IMG/VR virus record: IMGVR_UViG_3300020442_002322
Coordinates: 24,808 to 88,807 of that record
Origin: a virus
Strand: one strand, 5' to 3'
Length of the DNA stretch: 64,000 nucleotides
The position numbers and the translations under genes are program-made. Each line of letters starts with the position of its first letter. The stretch's first letter is position 1. The notes under the pieces were generated by a model that saw only the letters and a list, made by a program, of their open reading frames with translations, had not been told where the DNA came from and did no database searches. This document shows positions 2,924 through 57,379 of this stretch, one piece after another.

Positions 2924-4402
2924 TTATACTTTAAGTACACACTCGATAATTTTTTCTTCTTGTTCTGTACTTGACTCTAATGCTACTCCAACTAATCCAT
3001 TGCTTGCAATAGTAGAAGCTACTCCGTCTGCCCATGCATACACTGCCTGTCCTTTTGAAACTGGGCCAGTTACTCTCACAGGAACACGACCTTTAAGTGC
3101 TATTGCTTGTCCTTCGCTGTCTTCGTTCATTATCATTGCTGGATTTTCAGAAATAACTCCTATAGCAAAATCACTTGTTTTTGCCGCTCTAGCTTCTTCT
3201 TTGCCTCCAACTGCCATAACAGTTCCAACAGGATATTCTTGATCTGTTGTATACTTTTCTGCAATATCAGCATATTGAGCGGCAATCGCTGTTCCTCTAA
3301 AGAAATTAGCAGTAATATCACCACTGCTATCTCTCAAAGCAACTGTGCTTGCGTTTGCACTAGTTTGTCCTAGGTAAGTATTACCGTCAAACTTAATTGC
3401 TGTTGCTGTGTCTGCTGTACCTCTAAAGAAGTCTGCATAAACATCTGACCATCTTAATGCTGTTGTTCCAAGTGTATATGTTTGTGTTGCTCCTGGATTC
3501 ATTCCTGTTGATGTGAATGTTGCACTGTTTGTTTGTTGACTTGATCCATTGTTTAATTGAATCTTAATTGCATTTGAAGTACCTTGCTCATTTGCAATTA
3601 CACCTGTGTTACCAGTTACATAGATATGTAAACCTAAACTATCACCAATTTTTAAACCATTATTATTTTCAATATTAACTAATTCGTTAAATGATGTAGA
3701 TTGACCAGCTTGCTGTGTAACAAAGTCTGCGGCATCAACACCGTTTAGTTTTAGTGCATTAGATGCTGTTCCCCAAAAATAATGGTTAGTGCTTGTGACA
3801 CCGCCTGTGCTTGCAATAGTGTTTATAAGTGTAATACCTTTTTTGACAGTATCAAATCCTGTAATTGCATTAGCTGGATCTGTACCATCAATAGTAAATT
3901 CTTGTGGGCTAATAATAAAAATAACTTCATCATCAATTGTAGCAGTAATTACACTGTGATTAGTATTTTGTGTATCTCTAATAGTTTGACTACGCATCTG
4001 TGTTAAACCGCTACCAGTTCCTTGCGGTCCTACTAGGATCCAACTTGATCCATCATATGCATATAATTGATTATTACCACTATCAAACCAAAAATCACCT
4101 GATACTGCTGTTGCTGGTTGGGTTGAAGATACTTCAGCACCGCCTGTTGGCTTAAACACGGAACCGTCGTAGAATTTTATTTTACCAGTAGTACTATCAT
4201 GCCAAATTTGACCTGCGATTGGTTTAGGTGGTTGTGAACTTCCACTAAAATTTTCTAATAAAAACAAGAAGTTTTCATTTTGTATTTCGCCATATCCAGC
4301 ATAGTTCTTTCCAACAAACGTAAGATCTGTTGTAGTGTCTATGGTCCCGTCTTGCACAACAACTAAAGTTGCTCCGCTGTATTTGTTAATTGTATAAGCC
4401 AT
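2924..4402 (-). CDS. Tail fibre-like protein with C-terminal ADIAEKY (peptidase G2/chaperone-like) domain
   Basis: N-terminal MAYTINK...GKNYAGYGE.QNENF..LLENF module; C-terminal AQYADIAEKY...IGVISENPA...ALKGRVPVRV. Confidence 0.7.
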   Translation of the reverse strand: MAYTINKYSGATLVVVQDGTIDTTTDLTFVGKNYAGYGEIQNENFLFLLENFSGSSQPPKPIAGQIWHDSTTGKIKFYDGSVFKPTGGAEVSSTQPATAVSGDFWFDSGNNQLYAYDGSSWILVGPQGTGSGLTQMRSQTIRDTQNTNHSVITATIDDEVIFIISPQEFTIDGTDPANAITGFDTVKKGITLINTIASTGGVTSTNHYFWGTASNALKLNGVDAADFVTQQAGQSTSFNELVNIENNNGLKIGDSLGLHIYVTGNTGVIANEQGTSNAIKIQLNNGSSQQTNSATFTSTGMNPGATQTYTLGTTALRWSDVYADFFRGTADTATAIKFDGNTYLGQTSANASTVALRDSSGDITANFFRGTAIAAQYADIAEKYTTDQEYPVGTVMAVGGKEEARAAKTSDFAIGVISENPAMIMNEDSEGQAIALKGRVPVRVTGPVSKGQAVYAWADGVASTIASNGLVGVALESSTEQEEKIIECVLKV

Positions 4403-37610: not shown

Positions 37611-39382
37611 TGATAAAAGTAAAAGATTTAACAGTAAAAAACTTTATGAGTGTGGGTAACCAAACCCAAGCGGTTGACTTCAATAAGGAGCAACTCACAC
37701 TCGTGCTTGGTGAAAACTTAGATCAGGGAGGTGACGACCAAGGCTCAAGAAACGGTACAGGTAAGACAACCATTATCAATGCGTTATCATATGCCCTGTA
37801 CGGCCAAGCACTGACCAACATCAAACGGAACAATCTTATCAACAAGACAAATTCCAAAGGTATGTTGGTCACCTTACACTTTGAGAAGGACGGTGTTGAC
37901 TATAGGATTGAGCGAGGACGCTCTCCTAACGTGTTAAAGTTCTATATCAATGACCAAGAGCAGGAAATGCTCGATGAATCGCAAGGTGATAGTCGCAAAA
38001 CGCAAGAGCAAATCAATACGTTGTTGGGTATGAGCCACGATATGTTCAAACATATTGTTGCACTAAACACATACACTGAACCGTTTCTTAGTTTGAAACA
38101 GAACGATCAACGTGCAATTATTGAACAGCTCTTGGGTATTACAATACTTTCAGAGAAAGCAGAAAATTTAAAAGAACATGTACGTCAAACAAAAGAAAAG
38201 ATTACATCAGAAACACTAAAGATTGAAGCAATACAAACTGCAAACAGTAAAATTGAAACTACTATAGATAGTTTAAAAAACAATCAACGTGCTTGGAATA
38301 GCAAACAGTCACAGGACATAGAAAGATTAACAAAAAGTATTGAAGAGTTAGAAAAACTTGATATCGATCAAGAGCTTGAAGCACATGAAAAATTACAAAA
38401 CTGGAGTGAACAGAGTAATGCAATAACGGCTCTTAATAAAGAAAAAAGCACACTAGAGAGTGCATTACTACGTGCTACTAAGTCTGTAGAAAAAGCAGAA
38501 AAAGACATCGCAAATCTTGAAGATGCTGTGTGTTATACTTGTGGACAAGCATTGCATGACGACAAAAAAGCAGAAATTGAATCAAGAAAAACAAAAGAGT
38601 TGAACGATGCAATGGCATATCAAACTGAGGTTGCTGATAAACTTGAAGATATCTTAAAAGGACTAGATGAAATTGGTGATATCAACGGACGTCCTACTAC
38701 ATTTTATGAAACAATGCGTGAAGCATACGATCATAGAACTAATGTAGACGGATTGCGTAACACTCTTACTTCAAGACAACAAGAAACTGATCCTTACCAA
38801 GCACAAATTGACGAACTTTCAACTACAGCAATGCAAGAAATTGATTGGACGCCTGTAAACGAACTTACAAGTTTACAAGAACATCAAAATTTCTTGTACA
38901 AATTGCTAACAAACAAAGATAGTTTTATACGTAAGAAAATTATTGATCAAAATTTAGCATATTTGAATAATAGACTTACATATTATCTTGACAAACTAGG
39001 ATTACCACATCAAGTAGAGTTTCAAAATGATCTTACTGTAATGATTACACAACTTGGACAGGATTTAGACTTTGATAACTTGAGTAGAGGTGAAAGAAAT
39101 AGACTTATTCTTGGTATGAGCTTTGCATTCCGTGATGTTTGGGAAAGTTTATATCAAAATGTTAACCTATTGTTTATTGATGAGCTTATTGACAGCGGTA
39201 TGGACACTGCTGGTGTTGAAGGATCGCTTGCTGTAATCAAAAAAATGGGTAGAGAGCGACACAAAAACGTATTTTTGATTTCGCACAAAGACGAATTAGT
39301 TGGTCGTGTAAACCATGTTATGAAAGTTATCAAAGAAAACGGGTTTACAAGTTACGAAAATGATATAGAAATTATAGAATGA
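37610..39382 (+). CDS. Recombination ATPase subunit (gp46 / Rad50-SbcC-like)
   Basis: KNFMSVG, Walker A NGTGKTT, coiled coil with CYTC zinc hook, LSRGE signature, LFIDE Walker B, ISHK. Confidence 0.93.
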   Translation: MIKVKDLTVKNFMSVGNQTQAVDFNKEQLTLVLGENLDQGGDDQGSRNGTGKTTIINALSYALYGQALTNIKRNNLINKTNSKGMLVTLHFEKDGVDYRIERGRSPNVLKFYINDQEQEMLDESQGDSRKTQEQINTLLGMSHDMFKHIVALNTYTEPFLSLKQNDQRAIIEQLLGITILSEKAENLKEHVRQTKEKITSETLKIEAIQTANSKIETTIDSLKNNQRAWNSKQSQDIERLTKSIEELEKLDIDQELEAHEKLQNWSEQSNAITALNKEKSTLESALLRATKSVEKAEKDIANLEDAVCYTCGQALHDDKKAEIESRKTKELNDAMAYQTEVADKLEDILKGLDEIGDINGRPTTFYETMREAYDHRTNVDGLRNTLTSRQQETDPYQAQIDELSTTAMQEIDWTPVNELTSLQEHQNFLYKLLTNKDSFIRKKIIDQNLAYLNNRLTYYLDKLGLPHQVEFQNDLTVMITQLGQDLDFDNLSRGERNRLILGMSFAFRDVWESLYQNVNLLFIDELIDSGMDTAGVEGSLAVIKKMGRERHKNVFLISHKDELVGRVNHVMKVIKENGFTSYENDIEIIE

Positions 39383-39594
39383 TTGAAGACGATACACACG
39401 ACAAATTAACAAAGGCATATTTAGAATATTACAAGGCAAATGAGAAATTTGAGGCGGCAAATTCCGTGCGAACACACAAAACAGTCAGAAGATGGCTGAG
39501 AGAGATACGTACTCTTGCTAAAAAACGCATGGACGAAATACACGAACACCATAATACAACAAGGCAAACCAAAAAAGACCAGGAACAATCATAG
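39379..39594 (+). CDS. Hypothetical protein (71 aa, helical)
   Basis: ATGA overlap with the gp46 stop. Confidence 0.7.
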   Translation: MIEDDTHDKLTKAYLEYYKANEKFEAANSVRTHKTVRRWLREIRTLAKKRMDEIHEHHNTTRQTKKDQEQS

Positions 39595-39612
39595 GCAACG
39601 GTATATAAGTTC

Positions 39613-40038
39613 ATGCATTGGACTTATCAAGACAAACAAGTAGATACTATTTCAGAAGAATATGAAGGATTTGTTTATCTTATTACCAATACAACAACTG
39701 GGCAAAAATATGTAGGCAAAAAACTTGCAAAATTTAAAACTACAAAACCACCCTTAAAAGGCAGAAAAAATAAAAGACGAGGCTACAAAGAAAGCGACTG
39801 GAGAGACTATTGGGGATCTTCAGATAGGCTACAAGAAGATGTAGACAAGTTAGGCCCAGACAAATTTACAAGAGAAATACTTTATTTTTGCAAATCACGT
39901 GCAGAAATGAGTTACATAGAGGCTAGAGAGCAATTTGACCGCCGTGTATTAGAGACGGATGAGTATTATAACGGTATTATTAATGTTAGAGTTGGCGGTT
40001 CTGACAAATTGCGCAAGGCATTATTAGAAAACAAGTAG
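39613..40038 (+). CDS. Stand-alone GIY-YIG family endonuclease
   Basis: GFVYLITN...KYVGKK...YWGSS...FTREIL...E...YYN pattern; no appended DNA-binding domain. Confidence 0.75.
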   Translation: MHWTYQDKQVDTISEEYEGFVYLITNTTTGQKYVGKKLAKFKTTKPPLKGRKNKRRGYKESDWRDYWGSSDRLQEDVDKLGPDKFTREILYFCKSRAEMSYIEAREQFDRRVLETDEYYNGIINVRVGGSDKLRKALLENK

Positions 40039-40044
40039 GCAAGC

Positions 40045-40390
40045 AAGGACACTGTTTGATCGAGGTTGCTCGATCCGCTTTGAGGTGTATCTTTACATCA
40101 GATTCTAGCGAGTCCATTAGGCTGTATGCTACAAAAACCCCTTAGCACTGGAACGAAGCGGGGGATATTACGGTGTAGCGTATATTTTAAGAATATACGG
40201 TATAGCGTAAGATGTCGATGTAGGTTGGGAAAGGTCAGAGCCCAGTAGCATAGTCAAATACCTACTTCCATGTCTCGGCTGGAGCGAACTCACATGAAGC
40301 TCAAGAGACGACGGAGCCGCTGTATAGGTTCCGTCTGACTGAAACAATCTACATGAAACTTAGACGCATTACTACGTAATGCGTATTTTC
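40045..40390 (+). ncRNA. Unclassified large structured RNA candidate (multiple stems, two predicted pseudoknots)
   Basis: GC-enriched part of a 464-nt intergenic region with at least 9 manually found helices (see findings). Strand is inferred from G-U pairs and context. Confidence 0.6.
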
Positions 40391-40465
40391 CATAATAAAC
40401 TACATCATTCATACGAAGTATTATAGTTTGAGCGTAAGCGAAAACTTGTTTCGTGTAACGAAACA

Positions 40466-40473
40466 CATAAATA
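40466..40473 (+). promoter_or_regulatory. T4-like late promoter (CATAAATA)
   Basis: 30 nt upstream of the 40503 start, immediately after a hairpin at 40447-40465. Confidence 0.55.
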
Positions 40474-40502
40474 CACTTATATAATACTTTAGGAAGTAAA
40501 AA

Positions 40503-41150
40503 ATGAAAGTTTATCAAATCACAGAAGAACGTGTTGACGAAAAACCTACAAGTGGCATTGCTAACTTTGGTAAAAAAGTTTTAGGTAAAGCCGCAGGTGC
40601 TGTAGGAATGAGTGGAACCGCTGGTAGAATGGGCGGAAGCGCAGAAGTTGGCAGTAAAGCAAACGAATTATACAAATCACTTGCAAGGTGGCAAGGTATT
40701 AACGGCAAAAATGACAAAAACATGACAGCCGCTGATCTTACAGCATGGGCAAACCAAGAAAAGTTGGATGTAAGAAAGATTACAATGCCTGATGGTATAC
40801 TTCCTAAGGCTAAACTAATGGATCTTGTGAAAAAAATCGCGGCCAGCGCCTTGACAGGCGGTAATGTGGGGCAAGATGCGCCCGCAAGCGGCGGTGCCGC
40901 ACAAGGTGGCGGAGCAATAAGCCAAGCAATTGGTGCATTACAAAAAAGCACAGGCAAACCTGGCAGTAATAATACTCCAGGTAACGCTGAGCCTGCGGCG
41001 GCAAGTCCACAGAGCCAAGCACAGCCGGCACAAGCACAAGCGGCAAATGTAAAACCAATGACAAACAAGCAGGGTATTCCACCTAACATACAAACTATGT
41101 TAGATAAACTTACTCCAACTGAGAAAAAAGCGTTAGCAGGAGCAATATAA
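40503..41150 (+). CDS. Hypothetical Ala/Gly/Gln-rich protein, possible internal head protein
   Basis: Late promoter; N-terminal MKVYQITEE resembles protease-cleaved I/L-x-E propeptides. Confidence 0.55.
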   Translation: MKVYQITEERVDEKPTSGIANFGKKVLGKAAGAVGMSGTAGRMGGSAEVGSKANELYKSLARWQGINGKNDKNMTAADLTAWANQEKLDVRKITMPDGILPKAKLMDLVKKIAASALTGGNVGQDAPASGGAAQGGGAISQAIGALQKSTGKPGSNNTPGNAEPAAASPQSQAQPAQAQAANVKPMTNKQGIPPNIQTMLDKLTPTEKKALAGAI

Positions 41151-43243
41151 TGAAATTAAGTGAAGTAACAAGTTATAATTTACGTTCTGCAACAATTTTA
41201 AACGAAGGTTGGCAGGATCTTACAGAATCACAAAGAATTTATGTAGGCCGTTGGGAAAAAGAACTATGGCCACTACTAGAACAGTACACAAAAGTTGCAG
41301 AAGCAACACTTACATCAGATCAAATTGATGCAATTTTCAAAGGTGCAGAAGCACAAGCAATGGCAAGCGGTAATAACAAGACTGCTCTTGGCAAAGGTGC
41401 TAGTGCGGCCGCGGCAGTTGCTAAACTTCCTGTTGATCTTGCAAAAGCAGTTGACAAAAAAATTAATGAACTAGGCAAATTAGCTCAAAATGCCGGACCT
41501 GTAAAAAATATGGATCAAAAGTTTGAGCAACTTAAGAAAGATATTACAGCAAAAAACAGCGACAGCAAAATTGTACAAGGTATACAAAAAGTAAGCGACT
41601 GGGCAAAAGAAAATCCAGGCAAAGCTAGTATTGCTGTAGGTATTCTAACAACTATTGCGGCTTTCGCAGGTGGTCCTGCAGGTGGTGCCGCGGCAGGTTT
41701 AGTATTACGTGCTTCAAAAGATTTATTACAAGGTGAAAAACTTTCAACAGCAGTTGGTAAGTCAGTCAAAACAGCGGCATATGGTGCTCTTGCTGGTATG
41801 GCGATCCAAGGTTTAACAGATAATATGATTGATAACATTGCAACTGGTAGTGAAGCAGAAGCAGAAGCAATGATGGACGCTTTTGAAAAAGCCAACTTCA
41901 ATGATGCAGTAGATGGCGCAATAGCAGATGCAGGATTTGATGCAGGTGTGCTTGATGGTGCTCAGAATTTAAAGATGTCTGGTAATATCAACGGGTTCTA
42001 TTACAATTATGATATGACAATGACTGCTGATCAAGTTGCACAATATAAAGCATTGGCTGATGCGGCGGCAAGTGCAGAAACATTTAGTCCAGAATATTAC
42101 AAAGCGGCAGGCGAACTACACGGATTTTTAGCAACAACACAACAAGCAAACGAAAACCTAACTGCTCTTGCACAAACAATTAAAGAAATTCCAAAAGATA
42201 TGCTTACAAGCGATCAAATAGAACAAGCGATTGCTGTTCTTGATAATGCAGATGAAGCAATTGAAAAAATTATGGACATTGGCGGCGCAACAGCGGCGGC
42301 GGCACAAGGTGCTATGGCAACAGTTGATGATAAAAACAAAGAAATGCACAAGGTCAAACCAATTGATCCAAAAGAAAAGGAACAACTTGAATTAGATCTT
42401 AAAGGTGGCAGTGATAAAAAAGAATCGCTGTCAATGGAAGAACGTTTTGAATTGTTTTTGATAGAAAAAGATCCTGCACAAGGAGAATTACCTCTCGATA
42501 ATCCAAACTCAATGGGTGCAAAAGCAAAGCGTGGAATTGGAAGTGCATTAGGTAAAGTAGGTGGCGCTATCAAAAAAGGTGCAGGTGCTGTGGCAGGCGC
42601 GGCTAAGAGCGCAGGAAAAGAATTAGGTAACAAAGTCACTTACAATAAACTAATGAAGTCATGGAAAGATGCAGGTAGTCCAACAGATTCAGCAAGTGTT
42701 ATGAATATTTTACAAGATGCAGGACTAAGCAACGATCAAATTACTACTATTGGTAAAGAAAACAAAGTAGATCTTAAACCTAAAACACAAGCAACAGCAG
42801 GTACACCTAGTACTGCAACACCTCAAGCAGGTGGTACACAAGCACAAGGTGGAGATGCACCAGCACAAGCAGGTGCCGCACCAACAGATGCACCAGCACA
42901 ATCACAGCCAGCAGGAAATGCAGAAGTTAAGCCTAGCACAATCAAAAAAGGCCAAACTATGAAAGCAAATGATGGTAATGAATACAAGTGGATGGGTGCA
43001 TTATGGGTAAACACTGCAACAAACAAACCAATTGGTATTATGCCTAGCATGAAAGCAGGCTTACCTAATCCTAAACTTGATCCAATCATTGCTGTAGCTA
43101 AAAAAGATCCAAAACTTGCAAAACTTATCAAACAACAAATTACAAGTAAAGGCGTTGAAGCAGGAACAGCAGGTGCGCAAAAAGCGGCACAAGCAGGTGT
43201 TAAAGGTACTGAAAAGTTAGACGCAAAGGGCGTTACTAAATAA
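41150..43243 (+). CDS. Hypothetical 697-aa helical protein, possible internal/ejection protein
   Basis: Coupled to the upstream gene; ILNE propeptide-like motif; hydrophobic Gly/Ala segments. Confidence 0.55.
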   Translation: MKLSEVTSYNLRSATILNEGWQDLTESQRIYVGRWEKELWPLLEQYTKVAEATLTSDQIDAIFKGAEAQAMASGNNKTALGKGASAAAAVAKLPVDLAKAVDKKINELGKLAQNAGPVKNMDQKFEQLKKDITAKNSDSKIVQGIQKVSDWAKENPGKASIAVGILTTIAAFAGGPAGGAAAGLVLRASKDLLQGEKLSTAVGKSVKTAAYGALAGMAIQGLTDNMIDNIATGSEAEAEAMMDAFEKANFNDAVDGAIADAGFDAGVLDGAQNLKMSGNINGFYYNYDMTMTADQVAQYKALADAAASAETFSPEYYKAAGELHGFLATTQQANENLTALAQTIKEIPKDMLTSDQIEQAIAVLDNADEAIEKIMDIGGATAAAAQGAMATVDDKNKEMHKVKPIDPKEKEQLELDLKGGSDKKESLSMEERFELFLIEKDPAQGELPLDNPNSMGAKAKRGIGSALGKVGGAIKKGAGAVAGAAKSAGKELGNKVTYNKLMKSWKDAGSPTDSASVMNILQDAGLSNDQITTIGKENKVDLKPKTQATAGTPSTATPQAGGTQAQGGDAPAQAGAAPTDAPAQSQPAGNAEVKPSTIKKGQTMKANDGNEYKWMGALWVNTATNKPIGIMPSMKAGLPNPKLDPIIAVAKKDPKLAKLIKQQITSKGVEAGTAGAQKAAQAGVKGTEKLDAKGVTK

Positions 43244-54055: not shown

Positions 54056-54102
54056 TACGTTCAGCCCAAGGGCCGGAAGTAGCATAATGCGAAGGAACGC
54101 AC
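54056..54102 (+). promoter_or_regulatory. glnA-type (glutamine-I) riboswitch aptamer
   Basis: CGTTCA-GCCC aa GGGC-CGGAAGTA-GCA taa TGC-GAAGGAACGC matches the recalled glnA motif (P1 CGUU/AACG, GGAAGUA and GAA E-loop strands); preceded by late promoter ACTAAATA (54044-54051). Confidence 0.75.
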
Positions 54103-54125
54103 TCAACTGTAAAAAGGAGAGTGAT

Positions 54126-56829: not shown

Positions 56830-56910
56830 TAAATACTTGTGTCAGATAGCGAGCCGCGAGGCGGACTTATGCTGTACCCACAGCGTAGCTCATAGAACGG
56901 GCATTGGACT
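56828..56910 (+). promoter_or_regulatory. Late promoter (GATAAATA) and structured 5' leader
   Basis: GCC-GCGA-GGC (56853-56862), TATGCTGT-accc-ACAGCGTA (56868-56887), GCTC/GGGC (56888-56902). Confidence 0.5.
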
Positions 56911-56929
56911 ACTTATATAGGAGAAAAAA

Positions 56930-57379
56930 ATGGGAAGACCACTAAACAAAAGATATTTTGGAACACCTACAGCAGGTGGCCAAGAAATTAAAGTAAACTT
57001 TCACAATGGAACAGCAGTAAAAGAAGGTTACATTGTAAAGCAAAAAGGCTCAAAAAAATTCGTATGTGAAGAAATTGGAACAGCAGGTGAATTTACTTGC
57101 ACACTAAAAACTGGTATTTTACCAGCGGCTTTGAGTGCAGGCGAAATGACAATTTCTGTAAAAGGCGATGATTCAGAAACTTACGGTGTAAGCAAAATTA
57201 CAGGACGTAAAGCAACTGTAGTAGCACCAAGTGCAACTGGGTCAAACGCACTAGACGGAACATCAATTGCTTGGAACTATTCAACTGCAACTAATGACAG
57301 CGCAGTACAAATAGAAGAAGCTGGTGATGATAACACATTATCAGGTACAGACGACGACGACTTTACAGATGATGCATAA
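56930..57379 (+). CDS. Hypothetical late protein (149 aa)
   Basis: MGRPLNKRYFG...GYIVKQKGSKKF; AGGAG RBS, own promoter and terminator. Confidence 0.75.
   Translation: MGRPLNKRYFGTPTAGGQEIKVNFHNGTAVKEGYIVKQKGSKKFVCEEIGTAGEFTCTLKTGILPAALSAGEMTISVKGDDSETYGVSKITGRKATVVAPSATGSNALDGTSIAWNYSTATNDSAVQIEEAGDDNTLSGTDDDDFTDDA

What the first reader, a model, noticed from the sequence alone, without database searches (positions are those of the whole stretch)
39613..40470. Stand-alone GIY-YIG nuclease followed immediately by a large double-pseudoknot RNA-like element
Seen in sequence: starting about 10 nt after the nuclease stop, the 464-nt gap is GC-enriched and almost fully foldable. Helices: GGAC/GTCC (40047-50/40112-15) enclosing GATCGAG-gttg-CTCGATC (40058-75) and CGCT/AGCG; TATGCTAC/GTAGCATA (40125-32/40245-52); a long hairpin 40164-40216 with a CGTATATT/AATATACG core; TGGG/CCCA (40226-44); GTCTC/GAGAC (40272-40309); GACGGAGCC/GGTTCCGTC (40310-35); ACGCATTAC/GTAATGCGT (40364-84). 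Two pairings cross these and would be pseudoknots: GTAGGT/ACCTAC (40220-25/40260-65) and loop GGTCA with TGACT (40233-37/40336-40). ACATGAA occurs twice (40292, 40351). I cannot match it to tmRNA, RNase P or group I/II introns. Inference: a novel large phage ncRNA. The 141-aa nuclease has no DNA-binding appendage but has a basic insert (KFKTTKPPLKGRKNKRRG), so it may form an RNP with this RNA, by analogy to HEARO/omega RNAs. A replication-origin or packaging element is the alternative.
Basis: partly seen in the sequence, partly recalled or inferred. Interest (0 to 1): 0.85.

Follow-up and report, generated by a model that had tools for sequence, protein, structure and literature searches.

The report
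Twin-word phage RNA beside nuclease
The gene-free stretch after a small DNA-cutting enzyme gene of this uncultured aquatic T4-like phage encodes a real, large, knotted RNA that carries the same short word twice; it does not depend on the enzyme, and what it does is still unknown.

Summary
Window 40039-40502 is a strongly folded + strand element (z -5.66 against -2.63 for the other strand). One of the two crossing pairings is backed by covariation; the other only by conservation.

The element belongs to a family of several hundred copies in uncultured aquatic phages. The family has alternative 5' domains on a shared 3' core. The core holds two copies of a lineage-specific 7-letter word (here ACATGAA at 40292 and 40351), behind fixed handles ACTC and ATCT. 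The two words change together and have no complement in cis.

Rfam has no match in the window. In one sister class, however, the 5' domain is Rfam RF01718 (Polynucleobacter-1). Earlier notes of this scan, which found this family at least eight times on other genomes, called it uncatalogued.

The GIY-YIG gene is an old syntenic neighbour under purifying selection. The RNA also occurs in three other gene contexts without it, and the nuclease family occurs without the RNA in four cultured phages. The nuclease-RNA particle idea is therefore not supported.

My best reading is an autonomous phage RNA whose two words are read by one partner in trans. That function is inferred, not shown.

The parts
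39613..40038 (+). GIY-YIG nuclease gene, 141 aa, catalytic domain only. It is a conserved syntenic neighbour of the RNA.
   Evidence: Pfam SegE_GIY-YIG E 3.1e-33, residues 3-123 on profile positions 1-123. PHROG 447 E 5.6e-37. Against 13 relatives, amino-acid identity is 83-93% while third codon positions are only 50-73% identical.
40039..40120 (+). Class-A 5' domain. The closing helix 40047-50/40112-15 encloses hairpin 40058-75 and a second stem-loop.
   Evidence: Compensated variants among 10 distinct class-A sequences. Other family members carry different 5' domains, classes B, C and D.
40125..40132 (+). 5' strand of the long-range helix. It pairs with 40245-40252.
   Evidence: Cognate duplex -11.8 against non-cognate -8.0 kcal/mol, better in 100 of 103 distinct pairs.
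40138..40163 (+). Hairpin CCCC/GGGG with the conserved loop motif GGAACGAAGC.
   Evidence: The stem appears as CCCC/GGGG, CCGT/ACGG and CTCT/AGAG in relatives. This was read and not counted formally.
40164..40216 (+). Long A+T-rich hairpin, an optional module.
   Evidence: It is absent, replaced, or present in the opposite orientation and at another position in other family members.
40220..40265 (+). Helix GTAGGT/ACCTAC. It encloses hairpin 40226-44, whose loop lies in the 17-letter stretch 40227-43 (invariant in these rows, which were gathered by it), and the 3' strand of the long-range helix (40245-52).
   Evidence: 99.3% paired with 2 pairs changed on both sides. It crosses the long-range helix, which makes a pseudoknot.
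40233..40239 (+). Loop GGTCAGA, proposed to pair with 40334-40340 (second pseudoknot).
   Evidence: 99.7% paired over 89 sequences with no change on both sides. An alternative pairing of 40334-40 with GTCGA upstream was proposed by RNAalifold.
40272..40309 (+). Helix GTCTC/GAGAC enclosing word 1.
   Evidence: Folds of 89 relatives. The outer stem recurs, but the inner fold differs between subfamilies, and the MAFFT-based count is poor.
40292..40298 (+). Word 1, ACATGAA, behind the handle ACTC.
   Evidence: Same-letter covariation with word 2.
40310..40335 (+). G+C-rich hairpin between the two words.
   Evidence: 99.4% paired with 2 pairs changed on both sides.
40351..40357 (+). Word 2, ACATGAA, behind the handle ATCT.
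   Evidence: As for word 1.
40364..40390 (+). Terminator-like hairpin followed by a T run.
   Evidence: Consensus scan: 9 pairs, loop of 3, tail ATTTTCC. Strict criteria are met in 45 of 115 distinct family tails.
40425..40446 (+). Hairpin with a tandem G-A internal loop and a GNRA-type loop.
   Evidence: The motif is present in 104 of 115 distinct tails. Stem and closing pairs vary in a compensated way, by reading.
40447..40473 (+). Last hairpin (40447-65) and a CATAAATA motif (40466-73), 30 nt before the start codon at 40503.
   Evidence: Sequence. NATAAATA lies within 260 nt of word 2 in 54 of 115 tails. That this motif is the T4-type late promoter is my own recall, not a tool result.

Best explanation
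The gap encodes one member of a widespread, modular family of phage non-coding RNAs.

Anatomy (shown). A class-specific 5' domain is followed by a shared core. In the core, a long-range helix crosses a local helix to form a pseudoknot. A hairpin loop probably pairs downstream. A G+C-rich hairpin is flanked by two copies of one 7-letter word, each behind a fixed handle (ACUC, AUCU). A terminator-like hairpin and a G-A/GNRA hairpin follow, just before the next gene's late-type promoter motif.

Expression (inferred). The RNA starts at the stop codon of the preceding gene and shows no promoter of its own. It is therefore most likely made as the 3' end of the early or middle transcript that carries gp47, gp46, orf71 and the nuclease, ending at its own hairpin.

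Mechanism (inferred). The two words change together across lineages, and nothing in cis is complementary to them. They are therefore probably read by one and the same partner in trans. That partner could be a nucleic acid carrying the complement, or a sequence-specific (possibly dimeric) protein such as an endoribonuclease.

The nuclease (shown). The GIY-YIG gene is a conserved syntenic neighbour, not an obligate partner.
For: Structure and strand. Many pairs are G-U on the + strand (for example 74 of 89 and 59 of 89 sequences at two pairs); these would be C-A mismatches on the other strand.

Family size:
- 599 or more nuclease-linked stretches.
- 100 class-D hits.
- 3 true copies in MAG contigs among 38 hits.

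Shared core across classes: a model built from classes A and B gives full-length hits at the expected place in 10 class-C and 3 class-D loci (E 0.0005-0.18), out of 24 class-C or class-D loci searched, and none in 4 control loci.

Twin words:
- Identical in 50 of 52 nuclease-anchored loci; the other 2 differ by one letter.
- Identical in 82 of 86 class-D loci.
- About 20 different words were seen.
- Same-letter covariation: position 5 GG 59 / AA 14 / other 1; position 7 AA 52 / TT 17 / other 5; n = 74.
- On a tree of 110 cores built without the word columns, word 1 changes at least 15 times, word 2 at least 16 times, and the joint state only at least 17 times.

No cis partner:
- No exact complement at any consistent place.
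- With G-U allowed and 6 of 7 paired, the best place holds 17 of 65 sequences and 10 of 71 in class D.
- No partner column by mutual information.

Autonomy.

RNA libraries: contigs of 4 metatranscriptome runs of one study cover the whole stretch.
Against: No transcript ends, no level and no strand are shown. The RNA-library contigs cover the flanking genes at the same depth and could be DNA carry-over.

No reader of the words was found:
- The complement is not enriched within about 10 kb of the RNA.
- It was not found in the 88.8 kb of the phage's own genome outside coding sequence of the other strand.

On well-supported branches only 1-2 independent contrasts exist, so the tree test has no statistical power.

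Adjacency to the nuclease is kept down to 35% amino-acid identity. This could mean more than synteny.

Weinberg et al. 2010 list the RF01718 motif as probably cis-regulatory (PMC2864571, table read).

The second pseudoknot has no covariation.
Confidence: 0.55

Rival explanations
1. Nuclease-RNA particle. The GIY-YIG protein has no DNA-binding domain, so it binds this RNA and uses the two words behind fixed handles as short guides.
For: - Adjacency and co-orientation hold in 108 of 110 core-anchored loci and 93 of 95 class-D loci, down to 35% nuclease identity.
- The protein is the catalytic domain alone and is under purifying selection.
- Variable words sit next to constant handles.
Against: - The RNA occurs without the nuclease in 3 distinct gene contexts that share no protein.
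- Extra ORFs are inserted between the gene and the RNA.
- The nuclease family occurs without the RNA in Melnitz, 2 cyanophages and phiN3.
- The words match the phage's own DNA, so a guide would target self.
- No RNA-guided GIY-YIG enzyme turned up in my two paper searches.
Confidence: 0.1
2. Cis-acting leader or regulated terminator for the late genes downstream. The fold, with word 2 next to the terminator-like hairpin, decides read-through into the next operon.
For: - In all contexts the RNA is co-directional with the next genes and lies just upstream of them.
- In the small phages these next genes include terminase.
- Word 2 lies 6 nt before the hairpin.
- RF01718 is listed as probably cis-regulatory (PMC2864571, table seen).
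Against: - The downstream genes are not conserved: orf215 relatives are 27-44% identical or absent.
- A late-type promoter motif lies between the RNA and the next gene, so late transcripts would not contain the RNA.
- No alternative pairing partner for the words was found.
Confidence: 0.12
3. Replication-origin transcript. The RNA stays hybridised to its own DNA and primes DNA synthesis or loads the clamp. This is the guess of earlier notes of this scan.
For: - It lies at the edge of the replication and recombination module (gp47, gp46).
- Identical words would let either RNA word pair with either DNA copy.
- It behaves as a cassette that occurs in unrelated phages.
Against: No test bears on it here. 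A 350-460 nt pseudoknotted fold with conserved loops is not needed for an R-loop. I did not analyse strand skew as a test of an origin.
Confidence: 0.08
4. Decoy or pseudo-antitoxin. The two words are identical cleavage or binding sites for a sequence-specific host endoribonuclease or defence protein, and the words track the specificity of the local host enzyme.
For: - Two identical sites bound a unit of 48-66 nt.
- The words differ between close relatives.
- The RNA is shared by unrelated phages.
Against: No such enzyme is identified. Most of the conserved RNA lies outside the unit. This is analogy only (type III antitoxin repeats, recalled, not tested).
Confidence: 0.07

Closest known systems
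Rfam RF01718, Polynucleobacter-1 RNA (Weinberg et al. 2010, PMC2864571)
   Same: In class-D relatives the 141-position model matches the 5' domain in full, right after the nuclease gene: L025 71.8 bits, L041 67.4 bits, gathering score 37. All 100 phage contigs fetched with a class-D word have the same layout. Of these, 82 of 86 carry twin words downstream and 93 of 95 carry the nuclease upstream. The motif ACGAAG/ACGATG recurs in all classes.
   Different: The window's own class-A 5' domain gives no RF01718 hit even at E up to 10, and neither do classes B and C. The Rfam model covers only the 5' 141 nt. The pseudoknotted core, the twin words and the 3' hairpins are not part of it. The paper's table lists the motif as a probable cis-regulatory RNA of Burkholderiales and fresh-water or estuary samples. 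Its supplement, which I could not open, may say more.
Large ornate RNAs of phages and bacteria (GOLLD, ROOL; bioRxiv 10.1101/2024.12.08.627333, abstract seen)
   Same: These are also several hundred nucleotides long, multi-domain and pseudoknotted, often phage-borne, and of unknown function.
   Different: There is no Rfam match to either. This RNA is smaller. Twin co-varying words are not a described feature of those RNAs, to my recall. No evidence on oligomers here.
Free-standing GIY-YIG (Seg-type) endonucleases of T4-like phages next to stable-RNA genes
   Same: A SegE-type GIY-YIG domain lies beside an RNA gene.
   Different: Here the protein lacks the C-terminal DNA-binding part. It is present in nearly all members of the clade. 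It shows saturated synonymous change with a conserved protein. So it does not behave like a sporadic mobile gene.
HEARO / omega RNAs of IscB and TnpB, and IS110 bridge RNAs
   Same: A structured RNA stands next to a nuclease gene, and short variable segments stand next to constant ones.
   Different: - There is no Rfam hit.
- The protein is GIY-YIG, not RuvC/HNH or DEDD.
- There is no transposon context.
- The variable words are 7 letters and equal to each other.
- The RNA occurs without the protein.

Membership tests
Rfam RF01718 Polynucleobacter-1 | Covariance-model score at or above 37 bits | tested here: not met
   The window 39300-40700 gives no hit at E up to 10, and the whole window gives none at the gathering score. 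The feature is met in class-D relatives L025 and L041.
Twin-word RNA family (working name of this scan) | Shared 3' core: the GTAGG helix; a hairpin loop able to pair downstream; two equal 7-letter words behind ACTC and ATCT around a G+C-rich hairpin | tested here: met
   The window is a row of alignments A1 and A2. Its words are at 40292 and 40351. Model R1 finds the core in other classes.
tmRNA (including two-piece tmRNA of Melnitz-like phages, PMC9004378) | tRNA-like domain and tag reading frame | tested here: not met
   ARAGORN finds no tRNA or tmRNA in the 64 kb window. There is no Rfam tmRNA hit.
Group I / group II introns, RNase P RNA, GOLLD, ROOL, HEARO | Match to the Rfam model | tested here: not met
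   cmscan of the window at gathering scores and of 39300-40700 at E up to 10 gave only chance-level hits to unrelated families. There is also no split host gene around the element.
Mobile free-standing homing endonuclease (Seg type) | GIY-YIG catalytic domain | tested here: met
   PF19835 E 3.1e-33.
Mobile free-standing homing endonuclease (Seg type) | A DNA-binding domain after the catalytic domain | tested here: not met
   The protein is 141 aa. The profile covers residues 3-123 and no further Pfam domain is found.
Mobile free-standing homing endonuclease (Seg type) | Sporadic presence among close relatives; recent spread | tested here: not met
   The gene is present in 108 of 110 and 93 of 95 RNA-anchored loci. 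Third codon positions are 50-73% identical at 83-93% protein identity.
Intrinsic terminator | G+C-containing hairpin followed by a T run | tested here: met
   Window 40364-84 plus tail. Across the family this holds in only 45 of 115 tails under strict criteria. Termination itself was not tested.
RNA-guided nuclease system (OMEGA / CRISPR-like) | Obligate co-occurrence of RNA and effector; a guide complementary to a target other than self | tested here: not met
   RNA occurs without the nuclease and the nuclease without the RNA. No complement of the word was found nearby. Binding and cleavage cannot be tested with these tools.

The most novel reading that the evidence does not exclude
The two equal words behind fixed handles, plus about three further co-varying letters upstream of each handle, are programmable recognition segments. 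With them this RNA brings a protein to two identical nucleic-acid sites. In the T4-like phages that protein could be the GIY-YIG enzyme, which lacks a DNA-binding domain. This would be a new kind of RNA-directed system, distinct from CRISPR, OMEGA and bridge RNAs.
Probability: 0.07. Interest if true: 0.95.

Novelty: new variant of a known kind. Interest (0 to 1): 0.62.

Why it matters
Large, intricately folded RNAs with no known job are rare, and several have turned out to do unexpected things. This one is common in uncultured aquatic T4-like phages and also occurs in unrelated smaller phages.

It shows an evolutionary signature I have not seen described: two distant words that stay identical to each other while changing between lineages, with no complementary partner in the RNA. 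That signature says something outside the RNA reads both words.

The work also ties a 141-nt Rfam motif of 2010 (RF01718), so far listed as a candidate cis-regulatory element, to a much larger phage RNA.

Tried and rejected
1. Known RNA families. Rfam was run on the window and on seven relatives. Only RF01718 matched, and only in class D. ARAGORN found nothing.

2. A partner for the words in cis. I tested the exact complement, G-U-tolerant pairing and mutual information. None gave a consistent partner. Apparent pairings were examined by eye: word 2's flank with GTAGGT, and TTCAT after the hairpin. I dropped them because they fail in lineages where the partner or the word changed.

3. A target nearby. 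Neither the complement nor the word itself is enriched within the fetched loci. In the phage's own 88.8 kb genome, the 10 complement sites all lie in coding sequence of the other strand.

4. The word as a mimic of translation starts. Only 2 of 83 crudely predicted starts carry it.

5. Ideas considered on the sequence and dropped. These were target-site duplication, ribosomal bypassing, a split gene with an intron, tRNA anticodon-loop pairing, K-turn or box C/D, and CsrA sites. Defining features are absent, or the word variants break them. No formal test was run beyond.

6. Contig ends. Of 80 nuclease-anchored contigs, 28 stop within 330 nt after the gene. I read this as assembly breaks where conserved sequence meets variable sequence, not as genome ends. 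This reading was not tested.

7. Expression. One study's metatranscriptome contigs cover the region. Depth is flat and the records are contigs, so no discrete RNA, end or strand can be claimed. One contig skipping 39998-40211 has only 23 letters on its shorter side and is not used.

8. RF01718 in 96 genomes of the genus of a Polynucleobacter MAG. There were 0 hits and nothing rang in the controls either, so this shows nothing.

9. Sequence search of solved structures with the nuclease gave only chance hits, E 0.34.

10. Papers. Three searches and one for the Rfam name found no description of this RNA beyond the table entry in PMC2864571. Supplements are closed and may hold the motif's description.

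11. Four class-D loci without detected twin words (L283, L284, L285, L303) were not examined further.
Full report
WHAT IS THERE

The window comes from an 88.8 kb virus record. Around the finding, all on the + strand, lie:
- a gp47-like phosphoesterase and a gp46-like SMC/AAA ATPase;
- a 71-aa ORF;
- the 141-aa GIY-YIG ORF (39613-40038);
- a 464-nt gap;
- two low-complexity ORFs.

The protein matches Pfam SegE_GIY-YIG over residues 3-123, on all 123 profile positions (E 3.1e-33). The nearest cultured relative of the protein is in Methylophilales phage Melnitz (66% identity).

THE ELEMENT IS REAL

The + strand of the gap folds far better than shuffles (z -5.66, 0 of 100 as good). The - strand does much less well (z -2.63). 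G+C rises to 0.43-0.455.

Relatives of the nuclease were found in 599 or more IMG/VR stretches. In the 80 that were kept, the order gp46, orf71, nuclease is conserved.

Directly after the nuclease the sequences fall into four 5' classes. The 3' part of the gap is 73-82% identical to the window in about 40 of the loci.

It also occurs in 38 places of 596 Gb of prokaryote assemblies. Only 3 of those are true copies, on MAG contigs of 73-335 kb.

STRUCTURE

Among 10 distinct class-A sequences, the three stems of the 5' domain each appear in two or three compensated versions.

For the long-range helix (40125-32 with 40245-52), the 5' and 3' strands of the same molecule pair at -11.8 kcal/mol on average, against -8.0 for strands from different molecules. 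The cognate pairing is better in 100 of 103 distinct pairs.

On an 89-sequence alignment:
- GTAGGT/ACCTAC is 99.3% paired, with two pairs changed on both sides.
- TGGG/CCCA is 98.3% paired, with one such pair.
- The hairpin at 40310-35 is 99.4% paired, with two such pairs.
- All five whole-structure measures exceed 498 or more of 500 shuffles and all slid controls.

The long-range helix and GTAGGT/ACCTAC cross, so the first pseudoknot is covariation-backed.

The second pseudoknot (loop GGTCAGA with TCTGACT) is 99.7% paired but never changes on both sides. RNAalifold offered a competing pairing for the same 3' strand, so this one stays a proposal.

Many conserved pairs are G-U on the + strand, which argues for a + strand RNA. 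The variable-length stems (40272-40309, its inner stem, and 40364-84) are badly aligned by MAFFT, so I give no count for them.

The long A+T-rich hairpin 40164-40216 is an optional module. It is absent, replaced, or present in the other orientation and at another position in other members.

Downstream of the terminator-like hairpin, a hairpin with a tandem G-A loop and a GNRA-type loop is present in 104 of 115 distinct tails. A NATAAATA motif is present in 54 of 115.

THE TWIN WORDS

ACATGAA at 40292 and 40351 is not a chance repeat.

In 50 of 52 nuclease-anchored loci with enough downstream sequence, the two 7-letter words are identical to each other. In the other two they differ by one letter. 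The same holds in 82 of 86 class-D loci.

About 20 different words occur. Each follows ACTC at the first site and ATCT at the second.

Column statistics show same-letter covariation (n = 74):
- position 5: GG 59, AA 14, other 1;
- position 7: AA 52, TT 17, other 5;
- positions 1, 3 and 4: fully concordant.
Position 8 is free. Two or three letters upstream of each handle also vary in step (by reading).

On a tree of 110 distinct cores built without the word columns, word 1 needs at least 15 changes and word 2 at least 16. The joint state needs only at least 17. On well-supported branches there are only 1-2 independent contrasts, all concordant, so that formal test has no power.

No cis partner exists:
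- No exact complement lies at a consistent place.
- With G-U pairs and 6 of 7 paired, the best place is shared by 17 of 65 sequences, and by 10 of 71 in class D.
- No column shows complementary covariation with the words.

The complement is not enriched in the fetched flanks or in the phage's own genome. The word is not the phage's usual start-codon context (2 of 83). Something outside the RNA therefore seems to read both words. I could not identify it.

RELATION TO THE NUCLEASE

Within the T4-like clade the two are steady neighbours:
- 108 of 110 core-anchored loci with more than 310 nt upstream have the nuclease 150-580 nt before the core.
- 93 of 95 class-D loci have it too, with nuclease identity to the window's protein of 35-86%.

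The gene is under purifying selection. Protein identity is 83-93% while third codon positions are 50-73% identical, in 13 of 13 equal-length comparisons. It is therefore not a recently spread selfish gene.

But the two are separable:
- L117 and L126 carry the complete RNA in a different phage type, about 1 kb upstream of a terminase large-subunit gene, with no nuclease within 2.5 kb.
- L256, which is identical to L299, carries a class-D RNA in a third context.
- The three contexts share no protein.
- In L047 and L050, unrelated small ORFs sit between the nuclease and the RNA.
- Melnitz has the nuclease in another context, with no BLAST-level copy of the RNA in its genome.
- In two cyanophages and a rhizobiophage the next annotated gene follows the homologue within 28-87 nt.
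- Model R1 finds nothing in those four loci.

The particle idea is thus not supported, though a looser tie is not excluded.

LINK TO A CATALOGUED MOTIF

Rfam has no match in the window. In class-D relatives, however, the 5' domain is a full-length match to RF01718, Polynucleobacter-1 (67.4 and 71.8 bits against a gathering score of 37).

A covariance model of the class-A/B core finds full-length matches at the expected place in 10 class-C and 3 class-D loci, out of 24 such loci searched, on the expected strand and nowhere else. The E-values are weak (0.0005-0.18). By eye, the order of elements is the same in all classes.

The 141-nt motif of 2010 is therefore the 5' module of one branch of this larger RNA. 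It is listed as a probable RNA, probably cis-regulatory, from Burkholderiales and fresh water or estuary (PMC2864571, table read). Earlier notes of this scan had called the family uncatalogued.

EXPRESSION

Four metatranscriptome runs, all of one study, hold contigs over the whole of 38800-41200 at similar depth. This is compatible with transcription. It shows no discrete RNA, no ends and no strand, and DNA carry-over cannot be excluded.

READING

I take the element to be an autonomous, horizontally shared phage RNA gene of a modular family. It is probably produced at the 3' end of the upstream transcription unit. It probably acts through two exposed copies of one word, read by a single trans partner.

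The alternatives remain open at lower odds: a cis leader for the late genes, an origin transcript, a decoy for a sequence-specific enzyme, or a nuclease particle. None was directly testable here beyond the co-occurrence data.

Noticed in passing
window 54056-54103 and 56853-56932: Rfam hits above gathering score: a glutamine riboswitch aptamer (51.1 bits) and a freshwater-2 RNA (58.8 bits), both on the + strand.
   Followed up: no
L002-L081, 0-330 nt after the nuclease stop: 28 of 80 contigs end within 330 nt downstream of the nuclease gene, and 10 core-anchored contigs begin inside the RNA. This is probably assembly breakage at a conserved island next to variable sequence; genome ends were not excluded.
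   Followed up: partly
window 40164-40216; L027, L029, L038, L059 about 3645-3690: The long A+T-rich hairpin recurs in other classes in the opposite orientation and at a different position in the RNA. Other hairpin modules are likewise shared between classes. They look like exchangeable or mobile hairpin cassettes.
   Followed up: partly
L047 about 3440-3710; L050 about 3440-3750: Unrelated small ORFs (about 88 and 100 aa, one with a CxxC...C motif) are inserted between the nuclease gene and the RNA. At least nine loci have such a widened spacing.
   Followed up: partly
window 40503-43243: The two ORFs after the RNA (215 and 697 aa) are rich in Ala, Gly and Gln, have no Pfam or PHROG match, and are only 27-74% identical to their counterparts in relatives.
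   Followed up: no
L117 7583-8089 and 8208-8645; L126 454-906: In the nuclease-less phages the RNA lies upstream of a small ORF, a conserved 150-168 aa ORF (52% identical between the two) and the terminase large subunit.
   Followed up: partly
L235 and L239 (contigs of 335 kb and 153 kb in one MAG): Two near-identical copies of the RNA lie on very long contigs binned as Neomarinimicrobiota. These are probably giant-phage contigs binned with a bacterium.
   Followed up: no
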